Shown in pieces: positions 8,238 through 26,331 of a DNA stretch of 64,000 nucleotides. The number at the start of each line of letters is the position of its first letter. Positions within the stretch are counted from its first letter, which is position 1. The notes below the pieces were generated by a model that did no database searches, was not told the DNA's origin, and worked only from the letters and a program-made list of their open reading frames with translations. Source of the DNA: Candidatus Caccoplasma merdipullorum. Its GTDB lineage: Bacteria > Bacteroidota > Bacteroidia > Bacteroidales > G3-4614. A program made the position numbers and the translations under genes. The stretch spans positions 13,292 to 77,291 of the forward strand of contig JADIMW010000003.1 of the NCBI GenBank assembly GCA_017694415.1, in the 5' to 3' direction.

Positions 8238-10949
8238 ATGAAGAGAGTTTATACGTTCGGCAACGGCCAGGCAGAAGGGCGCGCCGACATGAAAAATTTA
8301 CTCGGAGGAAAAGGTGCGAACCTTGCGGAAATGAACCTTATCGGTGTACCCGTTCCTCCCGGTTTTACCATCACTACCGAAGTTTGTACCGCTTACAACA
8401 AGGACGGACGTGATGCCGTTGTAGCAATGATTAAGGAGGATGTTGAAAAATCGATTGCCTATATAGAGAATATAATGGGCACAAAATTCGGTGATGCAAA
8501 AAATCCTCTGCTTGTTTCGGTACGTTCGGGTGCCCGTGTATCCATGCCCGGTATGATGGACACCGTCCTCAACCTCGGTATCACGGAGAAAGTTGCTGAA
8601 GGTATAGCTGTAAAAACAGGAAATCCCCGCTTTGCATGGGACTCTTACAGACGTTTCGTGCAGATGTACGGCGATGTGGTGCTGGGAATGAAACCCAAAA
8701 GCAAAACCGACATCGACCCGTTCGAAGAGGTAATGGATAAGGTTAAGGAAAAGAAAGGTGTAAAACTCGATACCGAACTCGACGTAAACGACCTGAAGGA
8801 ACTTGTAAAGCTCTTCAAGGTTGCTGTTAAGGAGAGAACGGGCAAAGAATTCCCCGATGACCCGTGGGAACAGTTGTGGGGTGCAATATGCGCCGTATTC
8901 GACAGCTGGATGAACGAACGCGCAATATATTACAGACGAATGAACCAGATACCCGAAGAATGGGGTACTGCCGTAAACGTTCAGGCAATGGTATTCGGCA
9001 ATATGGGTAATACTTCGGCAACCGGAGTTGCATTTACCCGCGACGCTGCTACCGGTGAAGACATATTCAACGGCGAATACCTTATCAATGCACAGGGCGA
9101 AGACGTTGTTGCCGGTATCAGAACTCCCCAGCAGATAACGATAGAGGGTTCGCGCCGTTGGGCTGCCCTCCAAGGTATCAGCGAAGAGGTTCGCGCATCG
9201 AAATATCCGTCGCTCGAAGAATCGATGCCCGAATGTGCAAAAGACCTTATCGAGACCCAGCAGAAACTGGAAGATTACTTCAAGGATATGCAGGACCTCG
9301 AATTTACCATACAGGACGGTAAGCTCTGGCTCCTCCAGACCCGTAACGGAAAACGTACAGGTGCAGCCATGGTTAAGATAGCTATGGACATGTATCGTGC
9401 AGGCCAGATTGACGACAAGACAGTTTTGAAACGCATGGAGCCGCAGAAACTGGACGAGCTCCTGCACCCTGTATTCGACAAAGTAGCTTTGAAGTCGGCC
9501 AAAGTAGTGGCAAAAGGTCTCCCCGCTTCTCCGGGTGCCGCCACCGGACAAATTGTATTCTTCGCCGATGATGCTGAAGCTTGGGCTGAAAAACGCAAGA
9601 AAGTAATCCTTATAAGAATCGAGACTTCTCCCGAAGACCTCCGCGGTATGAATGTCGCTCAAGGTATCCTTACGGCTCGCGGCGGTATGACATCGCACGC
9701 TGCCGTTGTTGCCCGCGGTATGGGTAAATGCTGCGTATCGGGTGCAGGTGAAATAAATATCGATTACAAAGCACGTACCATAGAAATGGGCGGCAAAGTT
9801 TACAAAGAGGGCGACTGGATTTCTCTCAACGGTTCTACCGGTGAAGTTTACGACGGACAGGTAAGCACCGTAGAGGCTGACCTCAGCGGAGACTTCGGCG
9901 CAATAATGGATATTGCCGAGAAATATACGCAGATGGATGTTCGTACCAATGCCGACACTCCGCGCGATGCCAAGACAGCGCGCCGTTTCGGAGCGAAAGG
10001 TATCGGTCTCTGCCGTACAGAACACATGTTCTTTGAGGGAGAACGTATCAAGGCCATGCGCGAAATGATTCTCGCAGGGAGCGAAGAGGGTCGCCGCGAA
10101 GCTCTCAAGAAACTCCTCCCGATACAGAGACAGGACTTCTTCGGTATATTTATGGCAATGGACGGATATGGCGTAACGATACGTCTTCTCGACCCGCCTC
10201 TGCACGAATTCGTTCCTCATCAGCTGGCTACTCAGAAAGAGCTCGCTGCCGAAATGGGTCTTACTCTCGAAGAGGTTAAGATTGCATGCGACTCTCTCGC
10301 CGAGTTCAACCCGATGCTCGGGCACAGGGGTTGCCGTCTGGGATGTACATATCCCGAAATTACCGAAATGCAGGCTCGTGCTATAATCGAGGCAGCTCTC
10401 GATGCAAAACTGCAGGGTGCAAAAGTTACTCCGGAGATTATGGTTCCGCTGGTTGGCATGATAACCGAGCTCAAGATGCAGGCTGAGGTTATTACCAACA
10501 CTGCAGAAAAAGTATTTGCAGAACGCGGCGAACGTATAGAGTACAAAATCGGTACGATGATTGAAGTTCCGCGTGCAGCTCTGACAGCCGATAAGATTGC
10601 TGAGGTTGCCGACTTCTTCTCGTTCGGTACAAACGACCTTACCCAGATGACTTTCGGATTCTCGCGCGACGACGCAGGTAAATTCCTCAAGATATATCAG
10701 GAAAAAGGTATCCTCAAAAACGATCCGTTTGCAATACTCGACCAGGAAGGTGTTGGACAACTCGTTCGCATGGGTACTGAAAAAGGCCGCTCGACGAAAG
10801 CACACCTCAAAGTGGGTATCTGCGGCGAGCATGGTGGCGAACCGTCATCGGTTAAGTTCTGCGCATCGCTCGGCATGAACTATGTAAGCTGCAGCCCGTT
10901 CCGCGTGCCTATCGCAAGGGTTGCCGCGGCTCAGGCTGCCATCGAATAA
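8238..10949 (+). CDS. ppdK: pyruvate, phosphate dikinase
   Basis: 903 aa. The phosphohistidine motif GGMTSHAAVVARGMGK is present. The C-terminal PEP-utilising block is GTNDLTQMTFGFSRDD ... GICGEHGG. Confidence 0.97.
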   Translation: MKRVYTFGNGQAEGRADMKNLLGGKGANLAEMNLIGVPVPPGFTITTEVCTAYNKDGRDAVVAMIKEDVEKSIAYIENIMGTKFGDAKNPLLVSVRSGARVSMPGMMDTVLNLGITEKVAEGIAVKTGNPRFAWDSYRRFVQMYGDVVLGMKPKSKTDIDPFEEVMDKVKEKKGVKLDTELDVNDLKELVKLFKVAVKERTGKEFPDDPWEQLWGAICAVFDSWMNERAIYYRRMNQIPEEWGTAVNVQAMVFGNMGNTSATGVAFTRDAATGEDIFNGEYLINAQGEDVVAGIRTPQQITIEGSRRWAALQGISEEVRASKYPSLEESMPECAKDLIETQQKLEDYFKDMQDLEFTIQDGKLWLLQTRNGKRTGAAMVKIAMDMYRAGQIDDKTVLKRMEPQKLDELLHPVFDKVALKSAKVVAKGLPASPGAATGQIVFFADDAEAWAEKRKKVILIRIETSPEDLRGMNVAQGILTARGGMTSHAAVVARGMGKCCVSGAGEINIDYKARTIEMGGKVYKEGDWISLNGSTGEVYDGQVSTVEADLSGDFGAIMDIAEKYTQMDVRTNADTPRDAKTARRFGAKGIGLCRTEHMFFEGERIKAMREMILAGSEEGRREALKKLLPIQRQDFFGIFMAMDGYGVTIRLLDPPLHEFVPHQLATQKELAAEMGLTLEEVKIACDSLAEFNPMLGHRGCRLGCTYPEITEMQARAIIEAALDAKLQGAKVTPEIMVPLVGMITELKMQAEVITNTAEKVFAERGERIEYKIGTMIEVPRAALTADKIAEVADFFSFGTNDLTQMTFGFSRDDAGKFLKIYQEKGILKNDPFAILDQEGVGQLVRMGTEKGRSTKAHLKVGICGEHGGEPSSVKFCASLGMNYVSCSPFRVPIARVAAAQAAIE

Positions 10950-12692: not shown

Positions 12693-14381
<1,689 letters not shown>

Positions 14382-14534
14382 ATTATCGCGTTTTTTATTG
14401 AAAATGCGAAGATAATAAAATTCTGTTATTATCGCCATATGGCTGCAGGCTAATATTGAATGGCGCTTCCTGCGAATTTGCACATGTCGGATTATATCAT
14501 TACCTTTACGGTTTAACTTCCATTAACTCGCATT

Positions 14535-20926: not shown

Positions 20927-21826
20927 TTACGGCTGCGGCGGCGTTTGCGCTTCTTTGCTTATGTGATACAGTTGTGTAGCGCAGGCGGCAAATGCGACAG
21001 CACTGGCGGCGGCCATCCAAAGTGTTCCGTCCTGCGATGTTCCTATGGTATCGATTTTATCGGAGCAATATCCGTTGGCAACTATATATGATGAGATTAC
21101 CGCAAGCGAATTGTTTACGAAATGGGCAAATACGGGAAGCCATATACTGCGCGACCATACAAGAAGGTATCCGAGAAATGCTCCTATTGCGAGACGCGGG
21201 ATGAATCCGTAAAATTGCAGGTGTACCGCACTGAAAATTATTGCCGTTATCCATACTGCGGCATGCGCATTGCGTCGTTTTCCGGCAATAAGGTTCTGGA
21301 TTATCCCCCTGAATGTAAACTCCTCTCCTACTCCGGTGAGGAAACCGACGATGAATATCAACAGCAACAATGCTCCGATAGATTTTGCATCGAGCAGGAT
21401 ACGGGTTGTCTCTTCTGCCATATCTTCCTGTTGCCTCATCCACTCTTCCAAACCTGAAAGGGCTTCGGGCAGATGCATCGACTGATTCCACATTACAAGC
21501 AGATTCATTGCCGGTGTCATTACAATCATTGTCAAAAGGCACAACAGAAACTCCGACAGCGACGGGAATCGCCTTGTCTTAAGCATGTCTTCACCGGGAG
21601 CAGATATGAAAAAGACACATATCAGCGGAGAGAGTATAAACAGTAACAAGTTTTGCAATACGACGCCTGTAAGCATTATGGTTCTGTCTTCTTGTCCGCT
21701 GCCTGTAAGAATAGTAATTACGGTTAAGGCCATTACCGTAACCAAAAACATTATTGCAAATACCAACAGTACTATAAGCAGTTTCTTACCGGTAGATGCA
21801 TCGGCATATATTCCTCGCAGTTTCAT
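20927..21826 (-). CDS. CPBP (CAAX/Abi) family intramembrane metalloprotease
   Basis: 299 aa and polytopic. The family motifs are EEFTFRG, FSAVH and HFVNN. Confidence 0.85.
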   Translation of the reverse strand: MKLRGIYADASTGKKLLIVLLVFAIMFLVTVMALTVITILTGSGQEDRTIMLTGVVLQNLLLFILSPLICVFFISAPGEDMLKTRRFPSLSEFLLCLLTMIVMTPAMNLLVMWNQSMHLPEALSGLEEWMRQQEDMAEETTRILLDAKSIGALLLLIFIVGFLTGVGEEFTFRGIIQNLIAGKRRNAHAAVWITAIIFSAVHLQFYGFIPRLAIGAFLGYLLVWSRSIWLPVFAHFVNNSLAVISSYIVANGYCSDKIDTIGTSQDGTLWMAAASAVAFAACATQLYHISKEAQTPPQP

Positions 21827-21899
21827 TCGATGTTTTATTGATCCGTTTGTTTTTATTTAAAATATAATGCTTGTATTGCCATGCTGAACGATATTAATG

Positions 21900-22772
21900 C
21901 TATATTTTGTCGTTCAGATAGATTACAAGAAGGAGCAACAGGGTAAAAAGCACCTGATTCATGGCTGTCCTCCCGATATAGGCATTCAGTTCTGTTCCTT
22001 CTTTACGGCGTATGCCTCGCCATGCCATGATGTGAAATGTAAGGAATATCATGGCTGCAACTATTGCAGGGAAGAACGAATAGTAAAAAAAGAATACCGA
22101 TGCTATAATGCCGTTGAGCAGGTATGCCGCCAAAGCTGCTTTTCGCCCGAATATCACGACGGATGTCATCTTTCCGTCATTTTTATCGGTCTCCACATCG
22201 CGATAATTGTTTACCAGCAGTATATCGACGGAGAGCAACCCCATGGCTGCCCCGGCAGCGAGAATTTCGCCGTTGCACCATTCTCCGCCTTGAAGCCAAT
22301 AGACTGCCGTTACGGGAACAAGTCCGAAAAATATGAATACGGTTATTTCGCCGAGTCCGTGATATGACAGCGGATACGGGCCTGCTGAATACCACACGGA
22401 AAATATTACTATCATGCACCCTGTTACGAATAGCGGCCAACCGCCTGTCGGGAGGAGCAGGCACCCCAACAGCGCGGCAATACTTAACGCCACGACTGTT
22501 GCAATCAACATTGCCTTGGGCGTTATGTCGCCCGAGGCTACCGCCCTGCGCGGTCCTACTCGGTCGGCGCGGTCGCTTCCGTTTTTATAATCGAAATAGT
22601 CGTTGCCGAAATTGGAGGCTATCTGCGCCACTACTGCAAACAGTGCGCAGATTACGGTAACTGCCGCGTCGAACGTTCCGTCGCTCCATGCATAGGCCGA
22701 GGCAAGTATTACCGGGGCAAGCGATGTGGGGAGCGTTCGCGGACGGGCAGCGGAAATCCACTTGGAAAGCAT
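21900..22772 (-). CDS. menA: 1,4-dihydroxy-2-naphthoate polyprenyltransferase
   Basis: 290 aa. It carries the UbiA-family motif NFGNDYFDYKNGSD. The N-terminus MLSKWISAARPRTLP is typical of MenA. Confidence 0.9.
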   Translation of the reverse strand: MLSKWISAARPRTLPTSLAPVILASAYAWSDGTFDAAVTVICALFAVVAQIASNFGNDYFDYKNGSDRADRVGPRRAVASGDITPKAMLIATVVALSIAALLGCLLLPTGGWPLFVTGCMIVIFSVWYSAGPYPLSYHGLGEITVFIFFGLVPVTAVYWLQGGEWCNGEILAAGAAMGLLSVDILLVNNYRDVETDKNDGKMTSVVIFGRKAALAAYLLNGIIASVFFFYYSFFPAIVAAMIFLTFHIMAWRGIRRKEGTELNAYIGRTAMNQVLFTLLLLLVIYLNDKI

Positions 22773-22777
22773 ATCTT

Positions 22778-24370
22778 TTATTTTTTATCTGCATTTTTTT
22801 GCGGCTCGGTACTCTCCATCTGGAAACACTCTTTTACCGCTTTTCGGATTATCTCCGAGTCGTCGCTGTTTTCTCTTAACAGCGATATTACATAGTTTAT
22901 GTATTTGTCGGTAGTGGCGAATCCGCACAACTGGGTTACGCGGCTCTGGTTTATCATCGATTTCTGGTTGAAGAAACGCAGCACCGCCCGATAATTTCCT
23001 TCATTGACATACCGTTTGAATTTGCTTAGCAGTTTGTTGTACGTGTTGTACGGGTCTATCTCTTCGGTAAGGTGTTCGACGTGTTTTGCAAATTCTTCTA
23101 TCGTCGAGACGCGGGTGTCTATCCTGAATACTATCCCGTTTCTTATCCTGTGGCGCGTATGCAGCAGAGCCTGTCCCTTAATATCGGCTTTGAAGAACTT
23201 TATTATGCACCGTTTTACGGTATTGAATACTTCGTCTTCGTCGTTGCCGGTGCGCCGCGCCACTGTACGGACTATCGGTTCGAGCATGAGGATATTTTCG
23301 ACTTCCGCTACATCGGGGACGTATATGTTCTTGCTGCGCAGATATTCTATTTCATGCGATGTGCGGCGGTCGCGATCGACAATGCCTCTCGATTCGAGGA
23401 GGTGGAAACTCTTCATCTCGGAGAATGCCTTGGTTACTTCTATTACCTTATTGCACCCGCCCAACGGTTTGATAGTCCAGTCGGTAAAGACAAGCGGATA
23501 CAGGCGGCTGTCGATACTCGATACTGAATCGCCCTCGATAAACAGCACGGGTTTACGGCCGCCGAGCAATTCGAGATATATCTCTTCTGGAAGTTTATCG
23601 GGATTTTCTATAAATTCGTAATCGAACGAACCGGTTTCGGCATCGTAACTCTTTACCCATATTCTTTTGCTGTTTCGGGATACGGCAAAATTCAAATCGT
23701 GCGTCAGGTATATGAATGTGCAATCGGGACGGAGGGCTTCTATATCGTCCCATAATGCACTTGTCATGGAAGGGTGAAGATGCATTTCGGGCTCATCCAC
23801 GACTATTATAGATTCGGGACGGGCAATAAACGACGAGGCAATCAGGTAGAATACTACTTTTTCGCCGTGGCTCATCTCCATTGCATTGTACGGGTTTCCG
23901 CTCTTGCCCGAGACTATTTCAATCGTATCGCAACGGCGCACGAGTTTGCTTTGCGGAAAGATGCGTTCCCATATAAGTTGTGTCTTGTCGAGCTTTGATT
24001 TCGGGAGTTTGGCTGTCGTCCTGCCTCGCGACAAGTCTTCCTTGTATTTTATCAGGTCTTCGAGTTCTTCTCTTTGCAGTATTGCAAAAAGTTGCTCGAA
24101 CTCGGTTTTGACTCTTATATGCGATTTTTCGTTGAACAGCCTTGCGTATTCAGCCCCTACGGAGTCGGGACGTATCGGTTTGTCGTAGTCTATCGGACAG
24201 ATTGTATTTAATGCCGAGATTTTAAATGTACGGTCGTAATAGCGTTTTTCTATTTCACTGCCGAAAAGACTTTTACCCGAACCGTTGGCTCCGACTATTA
24301 CAAGTTTATCTGCGTTTTTCAGGACTACCTCATTGTCGTCCCCTGCTTTCCTTGGCAATACTATATCCAT
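22778..24370 (-). CDS. ABC-type ATPase fused to a DUF4435/Toprim-like domain (OLD-family / merged-PARIS-like architecture)
   Basis: 530 aa. The ATPase motifs are Walker A GANGSGKS (aa 27-34), signature-like MSHGEK (166-171), Walker B IIVVDEPEMHLH (188-199) and YLTHD (221-225). The Toprim-like residues are a Glu in LFIEGDS (E279) and a DxD in GIVDRDRR (D332/D334). Confidence 0.75.
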   Translation of the reverse strand: MDIVLPRKAGDDNEVVLKNADKLVIVGANGSGKSLFGSEIEKRYYDRTFKISALNTICPIDYDKPIRPDSVGAEYARLFNEKSHIRVKTEFEQLFAILQREELEDLIKYKEDLSRGRTTAKLPKSKLDKTQLIWERIFPQSKLVRRCDTIEIVSGKSGNPYNAMEMSHGEKVVFYLIASSFIARPESIIVVDEPEMHLHPSMTSALWDDIEALRPDCTFIYLTHDLNFAVSRNSKRIWVKSYDAETGSFDYEFIENPDKLPEEIYLELLGGRKPVLFIEGDSVSSIDSRLYPLVFTDWTIKPLGGCNKVIEVTKAFSEMKSFHLLESRGIVDRDRRTSHEIEYLRSKNIYVPDVAEVENILMLEPIVRTVARRTGNDEDEVFNTVKRCIIKFFKADIKGQALLHTRHRIRNGIVFRIDTRVSTIEEFAKHVEHLTEEIDPYNTYNKLLSKFKRYVNEGNYRAVLRFFNQKSMINQSRVTQLCGFATTDKYINYVISLLRENSDDSEIIRKAVKECFQMESTEPQKNADKK

Positions 24371-24400
24371 CGCATATCCGTTTTGGGGTGATGATTATGG

Positions 24401-24431
24401 CAAATTTAATTAAAGTCCTCGATATACGAAA
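24401..24431 (-). promoter_or_regulatory. promoter for the ATPase-DUF4435 gene
   Basis: On the minus strand the -7 box is TAAATTTG (plus caaattta, 24401-24408). It lies 30 nt upstream of the ATG. A partial -33 TTTc sits at 24428-24431 with a 19-nt spacer. Confidence 0.5.
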
Positions 24432-24510
24432 CTGAAACGGCCGAGACTTTTGTTGTTGGAAAAATACCGGGGTCTTTCGACCGACTGCCTTTGCGTATAT
24501 TTTTAATCTG

Positions 24511-26331
24511 CTACATTACGGCATCGTACAGTTTTTGCAACAATGCTTTTCCGCGCAACAGACACGAATCGGGGGTTGCTCCCTGCATCAGCACGGGGCG
24601 GCCGGAATCGCAGTCGAATATTACGTTGTTGTCCGAATCAATCCACCCGAATCCGTTGGGATAGGTGTAGTATCCGAATTTGCAGAGTGTCGGGTCGGCG
24701 ATATTCCTGCTGAAAGGGAATTCGCCGTAATCGATACCTAATTGGGCAAGCAGAGTGGCGGGGATGTCCGACTGTGAAAGGTACTCTTCTATTACTGCGG
24801 GGGCTTTTACTGCTCCGCCGCTCCATATCATCGGTATTCGCTGACGTGCTTCGCCCTGTTCGTTATACCCCAACAGATACCCTACTCCATGGTCGGCGAC
24901 CAATATTACGAGGGTATTTTCCCACAGGGGCATTTTTTTAAATTCATCGATAAACGCCCCGATGCAACTGTCGGTATATGCTATGGAATTAATATACGGG
25001 TCGGGGAATTTATTATACGGGACTTCAAACGGTTCATGGCTGCTTAGTGTGAGATATATGTCGAAGAAGGGTTCTTTCTGTTCTCTTTTTTTCATCTCTT
25101 CAGCGAGGAACGAGAGTGTCGTCCCGTCGTTCGCCCCCCATTTCGACGCCAACCGACTTACGTCGAAATCCTTATCGGAGATTATCTTTTCCACGCCGCC
25201 GAGCCGGAAGAATGTGCTCATATTGGTAAAGTCGGCATCGCCACCGTATATGAAACGGCTTGTATATCCGTGCTTGCCGAGTTCCTTCATGAGGTTGGGC
25301 ATGTTTTGCATCTTGGCGGGGTATTTCATTACGGACATGGTTGGCAATGCCGGGAATCCGCCGAGGATGGAATATATGCCCCTGTCGGTTCGGAAACTGT
25401 TGGCTATCGTATTTGTGAAAAGAATCCCTTCGCCGGATATTTTATTCAGTTCCGCCATAACCTCTTTGCCGTCTTTTGTTACCGCAGCCCCGGAGGAAAA
25501 ACTCTCCATTATTATCATCAGTATATTCGGACGGGTGTTTTTTATCCAGCGTGCGGTATCGGAGGGGAGATAGGTTTCGCCTCTTAGTCCGGCAACTATC
25601 TTCGCGGCTTCTTCGTCAGCCATATAACGGGCATACTGCGAAAAATCGTTCTCGTGCATTACGGAATAGAGGAGACTGAACACGGGGTTTATGGCCGCAT
25701 TGTTGTACTGTGCGTTGGTACTGAAATATGCCCGCCCGGGGCTCATGGTAGAGGTTCCTATTCCTCCGCGTATCGAAACGAATGTTATTCCTGCAAGTAT
25801 CAGGAAGATGAACGATGATATGATTTTTTTGCGCGGCGCTCTCCAGTCGTCGCATTGCGCGGCAAGTTTATAAGGATAGTATGCAACGGCGGTTGCCAAT
25901 ACCGCGAATATTGCGAGAATCAGCGCAACCTGCCATGTCGGGACAGAGGCTACGGCATCGGCGGGGTTGGTAATATAAAAAAGCGGCGTGGCATCTATTC
26001 GGAATCCCCAATATGAATACAACTCCATATCGGCAACTATTATGAATGTCGCAAATATGCTTATCAGTACTGTATATGTGCGCGAAACATATTTAATCCA
26101 TTTTCCGCGCAGCCATACCGAAACGAGTACTACCAGAAGCAATGGGGCGATTATGTACGATGCGACCGAAACATCCATCTCGAATCCGTGGCGGATAACA
26201 TTGATGTAATCGATGAATCTTGCATCGGCGTACAAGTTATGGTGATACAGCATGAATACCGGTTTTACCAGTATGAACAGGGCTAAGAACCAAATATAAA
26301 CTTTTATTAAAAACAAAAATCTGCGTTTCAC
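24511..26331 (-). CDS. LTA synthase / phosphoglycerol-transferase family protein (membrane sulfatase-like)
   Basis: 606 aa. The N-terminal ~5 TM segments are followed by an alkaline-phosphatase/sulfatase-like domain (NILMIIMESFS ... ADHG). The ORF-track start is GTG (cac at 26329-26331). Confidence 0.85.
   Translation of the reverse strand: MKRRFLFLIKVYIWFLALFILVKPVFMLYHHNLYADARFIDYINVIRHGFEMDVSVASYIIAPLLLVVLVSVWLRGKWIKYVSRTYTVLISIFATFIIVADMELYSYWGFRIDATPLFYITNPADAVASVPTWQVALILAIFAVLATAVAYYPYKLAAQCDDWRAPRKKIISSFIFLILAGITFVSIRGGIGTSTMSPGRAYFSTNAQYNNAAINPVFSLLYSVMHENDFSQYARYMADEEAAKIVAGLRGETYLPSDTARWIKNTRPNILMIIMESFSSGAAVTKDGKEVMAELNKISGEGILFTNTIANSFRTDRGIYSILGGFPALPTMSVMKYPAKMQNMPNLMKELGKHGYTSRFIYGGDADFTNMSTFFRLGGVEKIISDKDFDVSRLASKWGANDGTTLSFLAEEMKKREQKEPFFDIYLTLSSHEPFEVPYNKFPDPYINSIAYTDSCIGAFIDEFKKMPLWENTLVILVADHGVGYLLGYNEQGEARQRIPMIWSGGAVKAPAVIEEYLSQSDIPATLLAQLGIDYGEFPFSRNIADPTLCKFGYYTYPNGFGWIDSDNNVIFDCDSGRPVLMQGATPDSCLLRGKALLQKLYDAVM

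What the first reader, a model, noticed from the sequence alone, without database searches (positions are those of the whole stretch)
22778..24431. Single-polypeptide ABC-ATPase + DUF4435/Toprim gene (OLD-family / merged-PARIS-like) embedded next to menA instead of in a defence island
Seen in sequence: the 530-aa ORF carries these motifs.
- Walker A GANGSGKS (aa 27-34), ABC-signature-like MSHGEK (166-171), Walker B IIVVDEPEMHLH (188-199) and YLTHD (221-225).
- A Toprim-like module with an invariant Glu in PVLFIEGDS (E279) and a DxD in GIVDRDRR (D332/D334).
- A helical tail of about 190 aa after the Toprim-like module.
Established knowledge: ATPase + Toprim is the OLD-nuclease architecture (P2 Old, Gabija GajA). 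ATPase + DUF4435 is the AriA/AriB PARIS anti-phage system, for which fused single-gene forms are recognised.
Unusual here: there is no integrase, RM system or other defence neighbour. The gene has its own TAAATTTG -7 box (24401-24408). Its stop codon lies 5 nt before the menA ATG, which suggests co-transcription with menaquinone biosynthesis. The protein is also shorter than AriA and AriB combined.
Inference: this is either a compact one-gene nuclease-based conflict system parked in a core operon, or a housekeeping nucleic-acid-processing ATPase of unknown role.
Basis: partly seen in the sequence, partly recalled or inferred. Interest (0 to 1): 0.6.

Follow-up and report, generated by a model that had tools for sequence, protein, structure and literature searches.

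The report
PARIS-like ATPase–nuclease gene fixed beside menA
The gene is a single-protein version of the PARIS anti-phage system (an ATPase fused to a Toprim nuclease). Unlike ordinary defence genes, it has been inherited vertically, under strong purifying selection, as the first gene of a conserved operon with the menaquinone gene menA across several families of gut Bacteroidales.

Summary
A 530-aa ORF (22778-24370, minus strand) carries every motif at the stated residues.

It is a fused ABC-ATPase + DUF4435/Toprim protein. It matches the PADLOC 'AriAB' (merged PARIS) model at E=8e-115 over nearly its full length. The best solved-structure match for its C-terminal half is AriB. Standard defence finders would call it PARIS, so the kind is known.

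What is unusual is how it behaves in genomes:
- At least 573 species genomes encode relatives, and the 80 best loci (nearly all titled Bacteroidales) all hold an uninterrupted full-length match.
- In Barnesiellaceae-like and Muribaculaceae genomes menA follows it directly. The gap is -8 to +19 nt in 20 of 23 loci.
- Pairwise divergence of the two genes is correlated at r=0.96.
- Against the nearest relative it has the lowest dN of eight neighbouring genes (0.048; dN/dS about 0.03).
- Parabacteroides keeps it at a different fixed housekeeping site, next to a GT39/PMT_2 glycosyltransferase and often downstream of proS.
- More distant fused relatives (28-41% identity) sit on plasmids, a phage and an integrase-bearing element.

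No fused PARIS form was tested in the papers I read. It is most likely an ATP-gated Toprim RNase that became chromosomally fixed. Whether it still serves immunity or now has a housekeeping role is unresolved.

The parts
22778..24370 (-). 530-aa ORF (stop codon included): fused ABC-ATPase + DUF4435/Toprim protein, merged-PARIS (AriAB) family
23576..24370 (-). N-terminal ABC/SMC-type ATPase domain, about aa 1-265. Compact, with a helical hairpin insert at aa 89-136 in the AF2 model.
   Evidence: Pfam AAA_21/AAA_15/SMC_N. AF2 model pLDDT 85.9. Fold hits to retron PtuA, OLD and GajA.
24269..24292 (-). Walker A GANGSGKS (aa 27-34)
24107..24205 (-). Most variable patch of the protein (aa 56-88; mean pairwise identity 0.22 among 79 orthologues, with indels). 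Possible ligand- or trigger-facing surface (inference).
23774..23809 (-). Walker B / D-loop IIVVDEPEMHLH (aa 188-199). The signature MSHGEK at aa 166-171 and the H-loop YLTHD at aa 221-225 flank it.
23255..23575 (-). Toprim core of DUF4435 (aa 266-372), the most conserved segment (mean pairwise identity 0.73). Holds E279 (23534-23536), D332/D334 (23369-23377) and VAEVEN at aa 354-359.
22826..23254 (-). Helical subdomain of DUF4435 (aa 373-515). Part of the AriB-like fold, not an extra tail.
   Evidence: The Pfam DUF4435 model reaches aa 501. AriB chains align over the whole C-terminal half. AF2 pLDDT 88.9.
24401..24408 (-). Bacteroidetes-type -7 box candidate TAAATTTG, starting 38 nt upstream of the ATG (its last base 30 nt before it)
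   Evidence: Only TAnnTTTG on this strand in 21800-24520. The equivalent motif lies at -38 to -54 in 14 of 23 related loci.
22773..22777 (-). 5-nt spacer between the stop codon and the menA ATG
   Evidence: The gap is -8 to +19 nt in 20 of 23 related loci.
21900..22772 (-). menA (1,4-dihydroxy-2-naphthoate polyprenyltransferase), conserved downstream partner in the operon
20927..21826 (-). Rce1-like CAAX protease gene, third gene on the same strand. Conserved after menA in 11 loci.

Best explanation
The gene encodes a fused ABC-ATPase/DUF4435-Toprim nuclease of the merged-PARIS (AriAB) family.

In this lineage it is not a mobile defence cassette. It is an anciently fixed, single chromosomal gene, inherited vertically through several Bacteroidales families. 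It is transcribed from its own promoter as the first gene of an operon with menA.

Proposed mechanism, by analogy with two-gene PARIS:
- The ATPase head dimerises around ATP and holds the covalently attached Toprim domain inactive.
- Binding of a trigger to the variable surface of the ATPase, most likely a phage protein, together with the ATP cycle, lets two Toprim/helical domains pair.
- The paired domains form a two-metal ribonuclease that cuts tRNA anticodon loops and arrests translation.

Shown here: the architecture, intact and invariant catalytic motifs, an AriB-like fold, vertical inheritance, operon linkage and strong purifying selection. Inferred: the oligomeric state, the RNA substrate, the trigger and the anti-phage role.
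For: Family and fold:
- PADLOC AriAB at E=8e-115, nearly full length, plus AriB and AriA models.
- Pfam DUF4435 and AAA_21.
- The only meaningful PDB fold matches of the C-terminal half are AriB chains: 8ux9_A (probability 0.99) and 8v46_D (0.95).
- The whole model matches PtuA, OLD and GajA ATPases.
- All ATPase and Toprim catalytic residues are invariant.

PARIS mechanism and the existence of merged clades: PMC11464382, PMC12409363, PMC9122126.

The wider fused family is mobile:
- 67 plasmid records, of which 25 are conjugative and 24 mobilizable.
- One Oenococcus phage.
- One viral contig with a tyrosine integrase 2.8 kb downstream.

Fixation and vertical descent:
- At least 573 species genomes encode relatives.
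- 80 of 80 loci give an uninterrupted full-length match.
- Clades in the tree match the context types.
- AriAB and menA distances correlate at r=0.96; 0 of 2000 Mantel permutations reach this.
- dN is 0.048, the lowest of eight neighbouring genes.

A hypervariable patch at aa 56-88 in the ATPase insert fits a sensing surface.
Against: - No fused PARIS was tested experimentally in the papers I read.
- Sequence similarity to the characterised E. coli system is marginal. The profile against AriA gives E=0.037 over the Walker B region only. AriB is not found by sequence. The TM-score to AriB is only about 0.36.
- The ATPase part is about 265 aa against 464 for AriA. It therefore lacks most of the insertions that build the AriA hexamer, and a covalent fusion cannot release its effector.
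- Order-level vertical inheritance, a conserved operon with a respiratory-quinone gene, no defence neighbours and dN/dS of about 0.03 are all atypical for immune genes. They fit a housekeeping role at least as well.
Confidence: 0.5

Rival explanations
1. Domesticated housekeeping enzyme. The Bacteroidales clade has lost the immune role. It acts as an ATP-regulated Toprim RNase (or nuclease) in routine RNA processing or in stress-induced control of translation, and is expressed constitutively with menA.
For: - Vertical co-divergence with menA (r=0.96).
- Overlapping or tightly spaced stop and start codons across families.
- Lowest dN of eight neighbouring genes and dN/dS of about 0.03.
- 80 of 80 loci give an uninterrupted full-length match.
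- A second fixed housekeeping site in Parabacteroides, next to GT39 and often proS.
- One exact P. merdae protein sequence seen on at least 1000 contigs.
- No defence neighbours.
- The closest catalytic-site homologue of AriB is the housekeeping rRNA-maturation RNase M5 (PMC12409363).
Against: - No phenotype or substrate is known.
- Relatives at about 40% identity are on plasmids and integrative elements.
- A hypervariable surface patch persists.
- No constant functional partner exists across families: menA in some, GT39 or others elsewhere.
- I did not establish whether the gene is universal in Bacteroidales. No Bacteroides or Prevotella names appeared among the hits I could name.
Confidence: 0.3
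2. OLD-like DNA nuclease. The protein acts on DNA, as P2 Old or Gabija GajA do, for example in DNA-end processing or restriction of foreign DNA, rather than on tRNA.
For: The whole-model fold search returns Thermus OLD 6p74 (E=1.3e-6) and GajA 8u7i/8x5i. The ATPase+Toprim single-polypeptide architecture equals class-1 OLD.
Against: - The C-terminal half alone matches AriB (probability 0.99) but OLD only at E=1.4.
- Pfam reports DUF4435, not the Toprim_Old family, at E<=0.01.
- The PADLOC GajA hit is 29.6 bits, limited to the Walker B region, against 382.6 bits for AriAB.
- No GajB-like helicase is adjacent.
Confidence: 0.12
3. Inert passenger. The ORF is retained only because it carries the promoter and translational coupling that menA needs.
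For: The only -7-box-like motif of the operon lies upstream of this ORF. The stop and start codons overlap in many relatives.
Against: - Protein-level constraint is strong. dN is the lowest in the neighbourhood, all catalytic residues are invariant and the Toprim core averages 0.73 identity.
- The gene is equally conserved in Parabacteroides, where it is not linked to menA.
Confidence: 0.03

Closest known systems
Merged PARIS (single-gene AriAB; the AAA_21+DUF4435 fusion model of Rousset et al. 2022, carried in PADLOC as AriAB PDLC02982)
   Same: Same domain order and length class. The match to the model is nearly full-length at 382.6 bits. About 984 clusters at 50% identity of mostly 500-600 aa fused proteins form one family with it.
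   Different: The merged models were defined from Pfam domain architecture alone (PMC9122126). I found no experimental test of a fused form. This clade is chromosomally fixed, syntenic and operon-linked to menA, whereas other members sit on plasmids, a phage or integrative elements.
Two-gene PARIS of E. coli B185 (AriA 464 aa + AriB about 306 aa; PDB 8UX9, 8V45-49)
   Same: An ABC ATPase plus a DUF4435 Toprim nuclease. AriB is the best solved fold match for the C-terminal half. The Toprim acidic residues are conserved.
   Different: - It is a fusion, so the effector cannot be released.
- The ATPase is about 200 aa shorter.
- The profile match to AriA is only E=0.037, and TM to AriB is about 0.36.
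- B185 PARIS is carried by a P4 satellite and is triggered by Ocr (PMC11464382). No trigger is known here.
OLD-family nucleases (P2 Old, Thermus scotoductus OLD 6P74) and Gabija GajA
   Same: A single polypeptide with an N-terminal ABC ATPase and a C-terminal Toprim domain. Fold hits for the whole model at E about 1e-6.
   Different: The Toprim half belongs to DUF4435, not Toprim_Old. OLD matches the C-terminal half only at E=1.4. There is no GajB partner.
Septu/retron PtuA ATPases
   Same: Best sequence and fold matches for the ATPase half: Retron Ec83 ATPase at E=2e-7, with 9n69 and 8eea among the top fold hits.
   Different: PtuA works with a separate HNH nuclease PtuB. No HNH gene or retron reverse transcriptase is present here.

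Membership tests
PARIS, merged AriAB form | ABC-type ATPase of the AAA_15/AAA_21 kind with Walker A, signature, Walker B and H-loop | tested here: met
   Pfam AAA_21 at E=1.1e-13 and AAA_15 at E=2.8e-5. The motifs are at the stated residues and invariant in homologues.
PARIS, merged AriAB form | DUF4435 domain containing a Toprim core with the catalytic Glu and DxD | tested here: met
   Pfam DUF4435 at E=1.8e-26, 93.8 bits against a cut-off of 27. PADLOC AriB at E=3.9e-22. E279, D332 and D334 are invariant.
PARIS, merged AriAB form | Both domains in one polypeptide, scoring above the fusion-model threshold (20 bits for AAA_21+DUF4435 in Rousset et al.) | tested here: met
   PADLOC AriAB PDLC02982 at 382.6 bits, E=8.1e-115, residues 5-513 against model positions 31-562 of 570. 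The threshold is quoted from PMC9122126. The PADLOC model is assumed, not shown, to derive from the same profile.
PARIS, merged AriAB form | C-terminal half has the AriB fold | tested here: met
   The top two PDB Foldseek hits are AriB chains: 8ux9_A (E=5.8e-3, probability 0.99) and 8v46_D (probability 0.95). The next hit drops to probability 0.51 (PorX, E=0.16). TM is only 0.31-0.36 with 12-14% identity, so the relationship is distant.
PARIS (as characterised in E. coli B185) | AriA-type ATPase with the IS1/IS2 coiled-coil insertions that build the hexameric propeller sequestering AriB | tested here: not met
   The ATPase part is about 265 aa against 464 for AriA. The profile matches AriA only over residues 162-222 at E=0.037. 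The AF2 model shows just one helical hairpin, aa 89-136. The oligomeric state itself cannot be tested here.
PARIS (as characterised in E. coli B185) | Anti-phage abortive infection triggered by an anti-restriction protein such as Ocr | not testable with these tools
   Needs phage or trigger assays. No test of a fused form was found in the papers I read.
PARIS (as characterised in E. coli B185) | Effector cleaves specific tRNAs (Lys, Thr, Asn) | not testable with these tools
   Biochemistry is required. Only conservation of the two-metal Toprim residues is shown.
Defence systems in general (typical, not defining) | Patchy distribution, location in defence islands or mobile elements, rapid turnover | tested here: not met
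   Syntenic in the 80 loci examined (nearly all titled Bacteroidales), with context types matching the clades of the tree. Co-divergence with menA at r=0.96. dN/dS of about 0.03. No PADLOC hits among 10 neighbours.
OLD-family nuclease (class 1) | Toprim domain of the OLD type (Pfam Toprim_Old) following the ATPase | tested here: not met
   No Toprim_Old hit among Pfam matches at E<=0.01. The C-terminal half against OLD 6p74 gives E=1.4. The whole-protein hit to 6p74 (E=1.3e-6) aligns the full length only poorly (TM 0.28, rmsd 14 A).
Gabija | GajA-type ATPase-Toprim protein with an adjacent GajB UvrD-like helicase | tested here: not met
   The PADLOC GajA hit is 29.6 bits over residues 153-205 only. 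The neighbours are menA and an LtaS-like sulfatase-family protein.

The most novel reading that the evidence does not exclude
The Bacteroidales 'merged PARIS' clade is not an immune system. It is a domesticated, essential-like ATP-gated Toprim ribonuclease with a housekeeping or stress role in RNA metabolism, co-expressed with menaquinone synthesis. If so, a substantial share of automatic 'PARIS' calls in gut Bacteroidales would be misassigned, and the clade would be a documented case of a defence module turned core gene.
Probability: 0.3. Interest if true: 0.7.

Novelty: new member of a known kind. Interest (0 to 1): 0.42.

Why it matters
Fused PARIS genes are counted as anti-phage systems purely from their domain architecture. 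Here a whole clade of them behaves like a core gene: fixed locus, operon with menA, co-divergence with its neighbour and very low dN/dS.

This matters in two ways. Either defence-system censuses of gut Bacteroidales are inflated by a housekeeping enzyme, or an abortive-infection nuclease can be kept for very long periods as a constitutive, chromosomally fixed guard.

Both readings can be tested in culturable Parabacteroides and Barnesiella. Either result would also give the first functional data on any single-chain PARIS.

Tried and rejected
- **Sequence search of the PDB.** A single-sequence search found only generic ABC ATPases. The profile search found AriA only marginally and AriB not at all. 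Homology to characterised PARIS therefore rests on the Pfam and PADLOC profiles and on fold.
- **Whole-protein Foldseek.** It was dominated by the ATPase half. I re-predicted the C-terminal half alone to test the AriB fold.
- **Sigma-70 promoter and terminator scan.** It gave fewer sites than shuffled sequence and none in the upstream spacer. The scan does not cover Bacteroidetes promoters. The GGTC-GAAA-GACC hairpin followed by a T-run that I saw after the LtaS-like gene was not called as a terminator, so I make no claim for it.
- **Broad NJ tree of 157 fused proteins.** The syntenic Bacteroidales loci fall in one clade of 48 leaves, but the stem is short (0.06) and 13 unnamed representatives fall inside it. 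I do not claim demonstrated monophyly or a single fixation event.
- **Literature searches.** Searches for merged PARIS, AriAB, or DUF4435 together with Bacteroides or Parabacteroides returned nothing on this clade.
- **dS.** Against L001 it is near saturation (pS 0.65) and against L002 it is saturated. The dN/dS value is approximate, and the ranking by dN is the firmer result.
Full report
**1.

The minus-strand ORF 22778-24370 encodes 530 aa.
- Walker A GANGSGKS, 27-34
- signature-like MSHGEK, 166-171
- Walker B IIVVDEPEMHLH, 188-199
- H-loop YLTHD, 221-225
- PVLFIEGDS, with E279
- GIVDRDRR, with D332 and D334

The stop codon is followed by 5 nt and then the ATG of a gene that NCBIfam identifies as menA. 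TAAATTTG lies at 24408-24401. It is the only TAnnTTTG on that strand between 21800 and 24520.

**2. What the protein is**

Profile searches:
- Pfam gives DUF4435 (E=1.8e-26, residues 272-501) and AAA_21 (E=1.1e-13).
- PADLOC's AriAB model PDLC02982 matches at E=8.1e-115 over residues 5-513. Separate AriB and AriA models match at 4e-22 and 2e-14. GajA, PtuA and other ATPase models match only around the Walker B region.
- NCBIfam has no specific model. Public records name the orthologues 'DUF4435 domain-containing protein'.

Structure:
- An AlphaFold model built on 24 homologues is confident (pLDDT 85.9).
- As a whole it resembles retron/Septu PtuA, Thermus OLD and GajA.
- The C-terminal half, modelled alone (pLDDT 88.9), has AriB chains of the solved PARIS complex as its best PDB matches: 8ux9_A (probability 0.99) and 8v46_D (0.95). 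Nothing else is significant, and OLD scores E=1.4.
- The relationship is distant. TM is about 0.36 and identity 14%. By sequence, the profile finds AriA only at E=0.037 and does not find AriB.
- The 'helical tail' is part of DUF4435/AriB, not an addition.
- The ATPase part is about 200 aa shorter than AriA. A short two-gene AriA model (PDLC04164, 253 positions) also matches it.

**3. Conservation**

In 24 homologues at 44-75% identity, the Walker A residues, E279, D332, D334 and a further acidic VAEVEN motif are invariant.

Among 79 orthologues, mean pairwise identity by segment is:
- Toprim core: 0.73, the most conserved
- ATPase motif block: 0.64
- Patch at aa 56-88 in the ATPase insert: 0.22, the least conserved, with indels

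**4. Genomic behaviour: the unusual part**

Distribution:
- The best 80 loci were returned, nearly all from records titled Bacteroidales: Caccoplasma-like, Coprobacter, Barnesiella, Muribaculaceae, Parabacteroides/Tannerellaceae, and some MAGs labelled Bacteroidaceae. A few MAG titles name other taxa.
- All 80 give an uninterrupted full-length match.

Linkage to menA:
- In 23 loci menA follows directly on the same strand, down to 43-45% identity.
- The gap between the stop codon and the menA ATG is -8 to +19 nt in 20 of those 23.
- A TAnnTTTG lies 38-54 nt upstream of the first gene's start in 14 of them.
- Upstream neighbours change between lineages. The LtaS-like gene appears only in the two closest relatives, an OmpA-family gene in Caccoplasma-like genomes, and ribE plus a nitroreductase in Coprobacter and Barnesiella. 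The pair therefore travels as a unit.

Other fixed sites:
- In Parabacteroides the gene sits at a different but equally fixed housekeeping site. A GT39/PMT_2 glycosyltransferase lies downstream in 35 loci, and proS lies upstream in 14.
- A third clade has a DUF4270 gene on the upstream side and a HydF gene downstream on the opposite strand.

Evidence for vertical descent:
- Clades of the protein tree coincide with these context types.
- Pairwise distances of the protein and of the adjacent menA correlate at r=0.96, and 0 of 2000 Mantel permutations reach this value.

Evidence for purifying selection:
- Against the nearest relative (L001, 91.5% identity) its dN of 0.048 is the lowest of eight neighbouring genes. 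For comparison, menA is 0.165, LtaS-like 0.129 and the M3 peptidase 0.069. dN/dS is about 0.03, with dS near saturation.
- One exact P. merdae protein sequence occurs on at least 1000 contigs.

Setting:
- The window itself is ordinary core chromosome. It carries PPDK, Ffh, a topoisomerase, tRNA methyltransferases and sulfatases, and none of 10 neighbours hits PADLOC.
- The 97%-identity cluster includes a protein named from Candidatus Caccoplasma merdipullorum.

**5. The wider family is mobile**

- About 984 clusters at 50% identity match at E<1e-30. Nearly all are fused proteins of 500-600 aa.
- Relatives at 28-41% identity occur on 67 plasmid records (Campylobacter, Escherichia, Synechocystis, Burkholderia and others). 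Of these, 25 are conjugative and 24 mobilizable.
- One relative is in Oenococcus phage phi9805.
- Another is on a viral contig with a tyrosine integrase 2.8 kb downstream.

The Bacteroidales clade thus looks like a fixed branch of a family that is otherwise mobile. A broad NJ tree is compatible with this but does not prove a single fixation event.

**6. Literature**

- PARIS is an AriA (ABC ATPase) and AriB (DUF4435 Toprim) system. AriA hexamers sequester AriB. The phage protein Ocr triggers release, and AriB dimers then cleave tRNA (PMC11464382, PMC12409363).
- Single-gene fusions were detected with HMMs built from ten AAA_21+DUF4435 and ten AAA_15+DUF4435 proteins chosen by Pfam architecture (PMC9122126).
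- These fusions form two 'merged' clades, said to derive once from clade 9 (PMC11464382).
- In the papers I read, no fused form was tested. Nothing addresses the Bacteroidales clade or its linkage to menA.

**7. Interpretation**

Membership in the merged-PARIS sequence family is well supported. Membership in PARIS as a mechanistic class (hexameric sensor, released effector, Ocr trigger, tRNA target) is untested, and on the AriA-architecture point it is not met.

My best reading (0.5) is an ATP-gated Toprim ribonuclease that became chromosomally fixed and is still used as a constitutive guard. The main rival (0.3) is that the clade was domesticated for a housekeeping or stress role in RNA metabolism. 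The vertical inheritance, operon embedding and purifying selection fit that rival at least as well. An OLD-like DNA nuclease (0.12) and an inert passenger retained for menA expression (0.03) are less likely.

**8. Verdict**

The object is a new member of a known kind that standard tools would label PARIS. Its evolutionary behaviour is atypical enough to justify a modest interest score and a simple set of experiments.

Noticed in passing
clusters of P0012 and P0028: Two 90%-identity protein clusters of the AriAB-like protein (Coprobacter fastidiosus, Barnesiella viscericola) also list 294-295 aa menA proteins as members. This is probably a clustering artefact from read-through or fused gene calls where the two genes overlap by 4-8 nt.
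   Followed up: no
window 22826-23254 (aa 373-515 of the ORF): Invariant H403, H406, H429 and C481, plus an NQK motif at 467-469, in the helical subdomain across 24 homologues. This could be a metal site or an interface.
   Followed up: no
L081 = NZ_OY725834.1 (P. distasonis 'plasmid 89', 218.8 kb): The record is labelled a plasmid but carries uvrA, transporters and the usual chromosomal GT39 context of the gene, and it is typed non-mobilizable. It is probably a chromosomal fragment, so it is not evidence of mobility.
   Followed up: partly
L014, L086, L081 and 32 other Parabacteroides-type loci: Where menA is not the downstream gene, the downstream gene is a GT39/PMT_2 glycosyltransferase. 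In the window, an LtaS-like enzyme lies upstream and a CAAX protease follows menA. All are polytopic envelope or polyprenyl-related enzymes. Whether this is coincidence or a functional theme was not tested.
   Followed up: no
L083 4998-6611 and 9388-10782: An IMG/VR contig (41.9 kb) carries a fused relative at about 41% identity. A tyrosine integrase (Arm-DNA-bind_5 + Phage_integrase) lies 2.8 kb downstream, with several ORFs without Pfam matches between and around them. This looks like a mobile copy of the family.
   Followed up: partly
window 8298-10832 (-) vs 8238-10949 (+): An 844-aa ORF runs antisense to the 903-aa pyruvate phosphate dikinase gene. It has no Pfam match and is most likely a shadow ORF.
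   Followed up: partly
window 24409-24510: The spacer after the LtaS-like gene contains GGTC-GAAA-GACC followed by a T-run. It looks like a weak terminator, but the scan did not call it.
   Followed up: partly
window 12693-14483 (-): A 596-aa ABC-F type ATPase (two ABC_tran domains plus ABC_tran_Xtn) lies 8 kb away. It also gives an AAA_21 Pfam hit, which is a reminder that AAA_21 alone is not diagnostic of defence ATPases.
   Followed up: no
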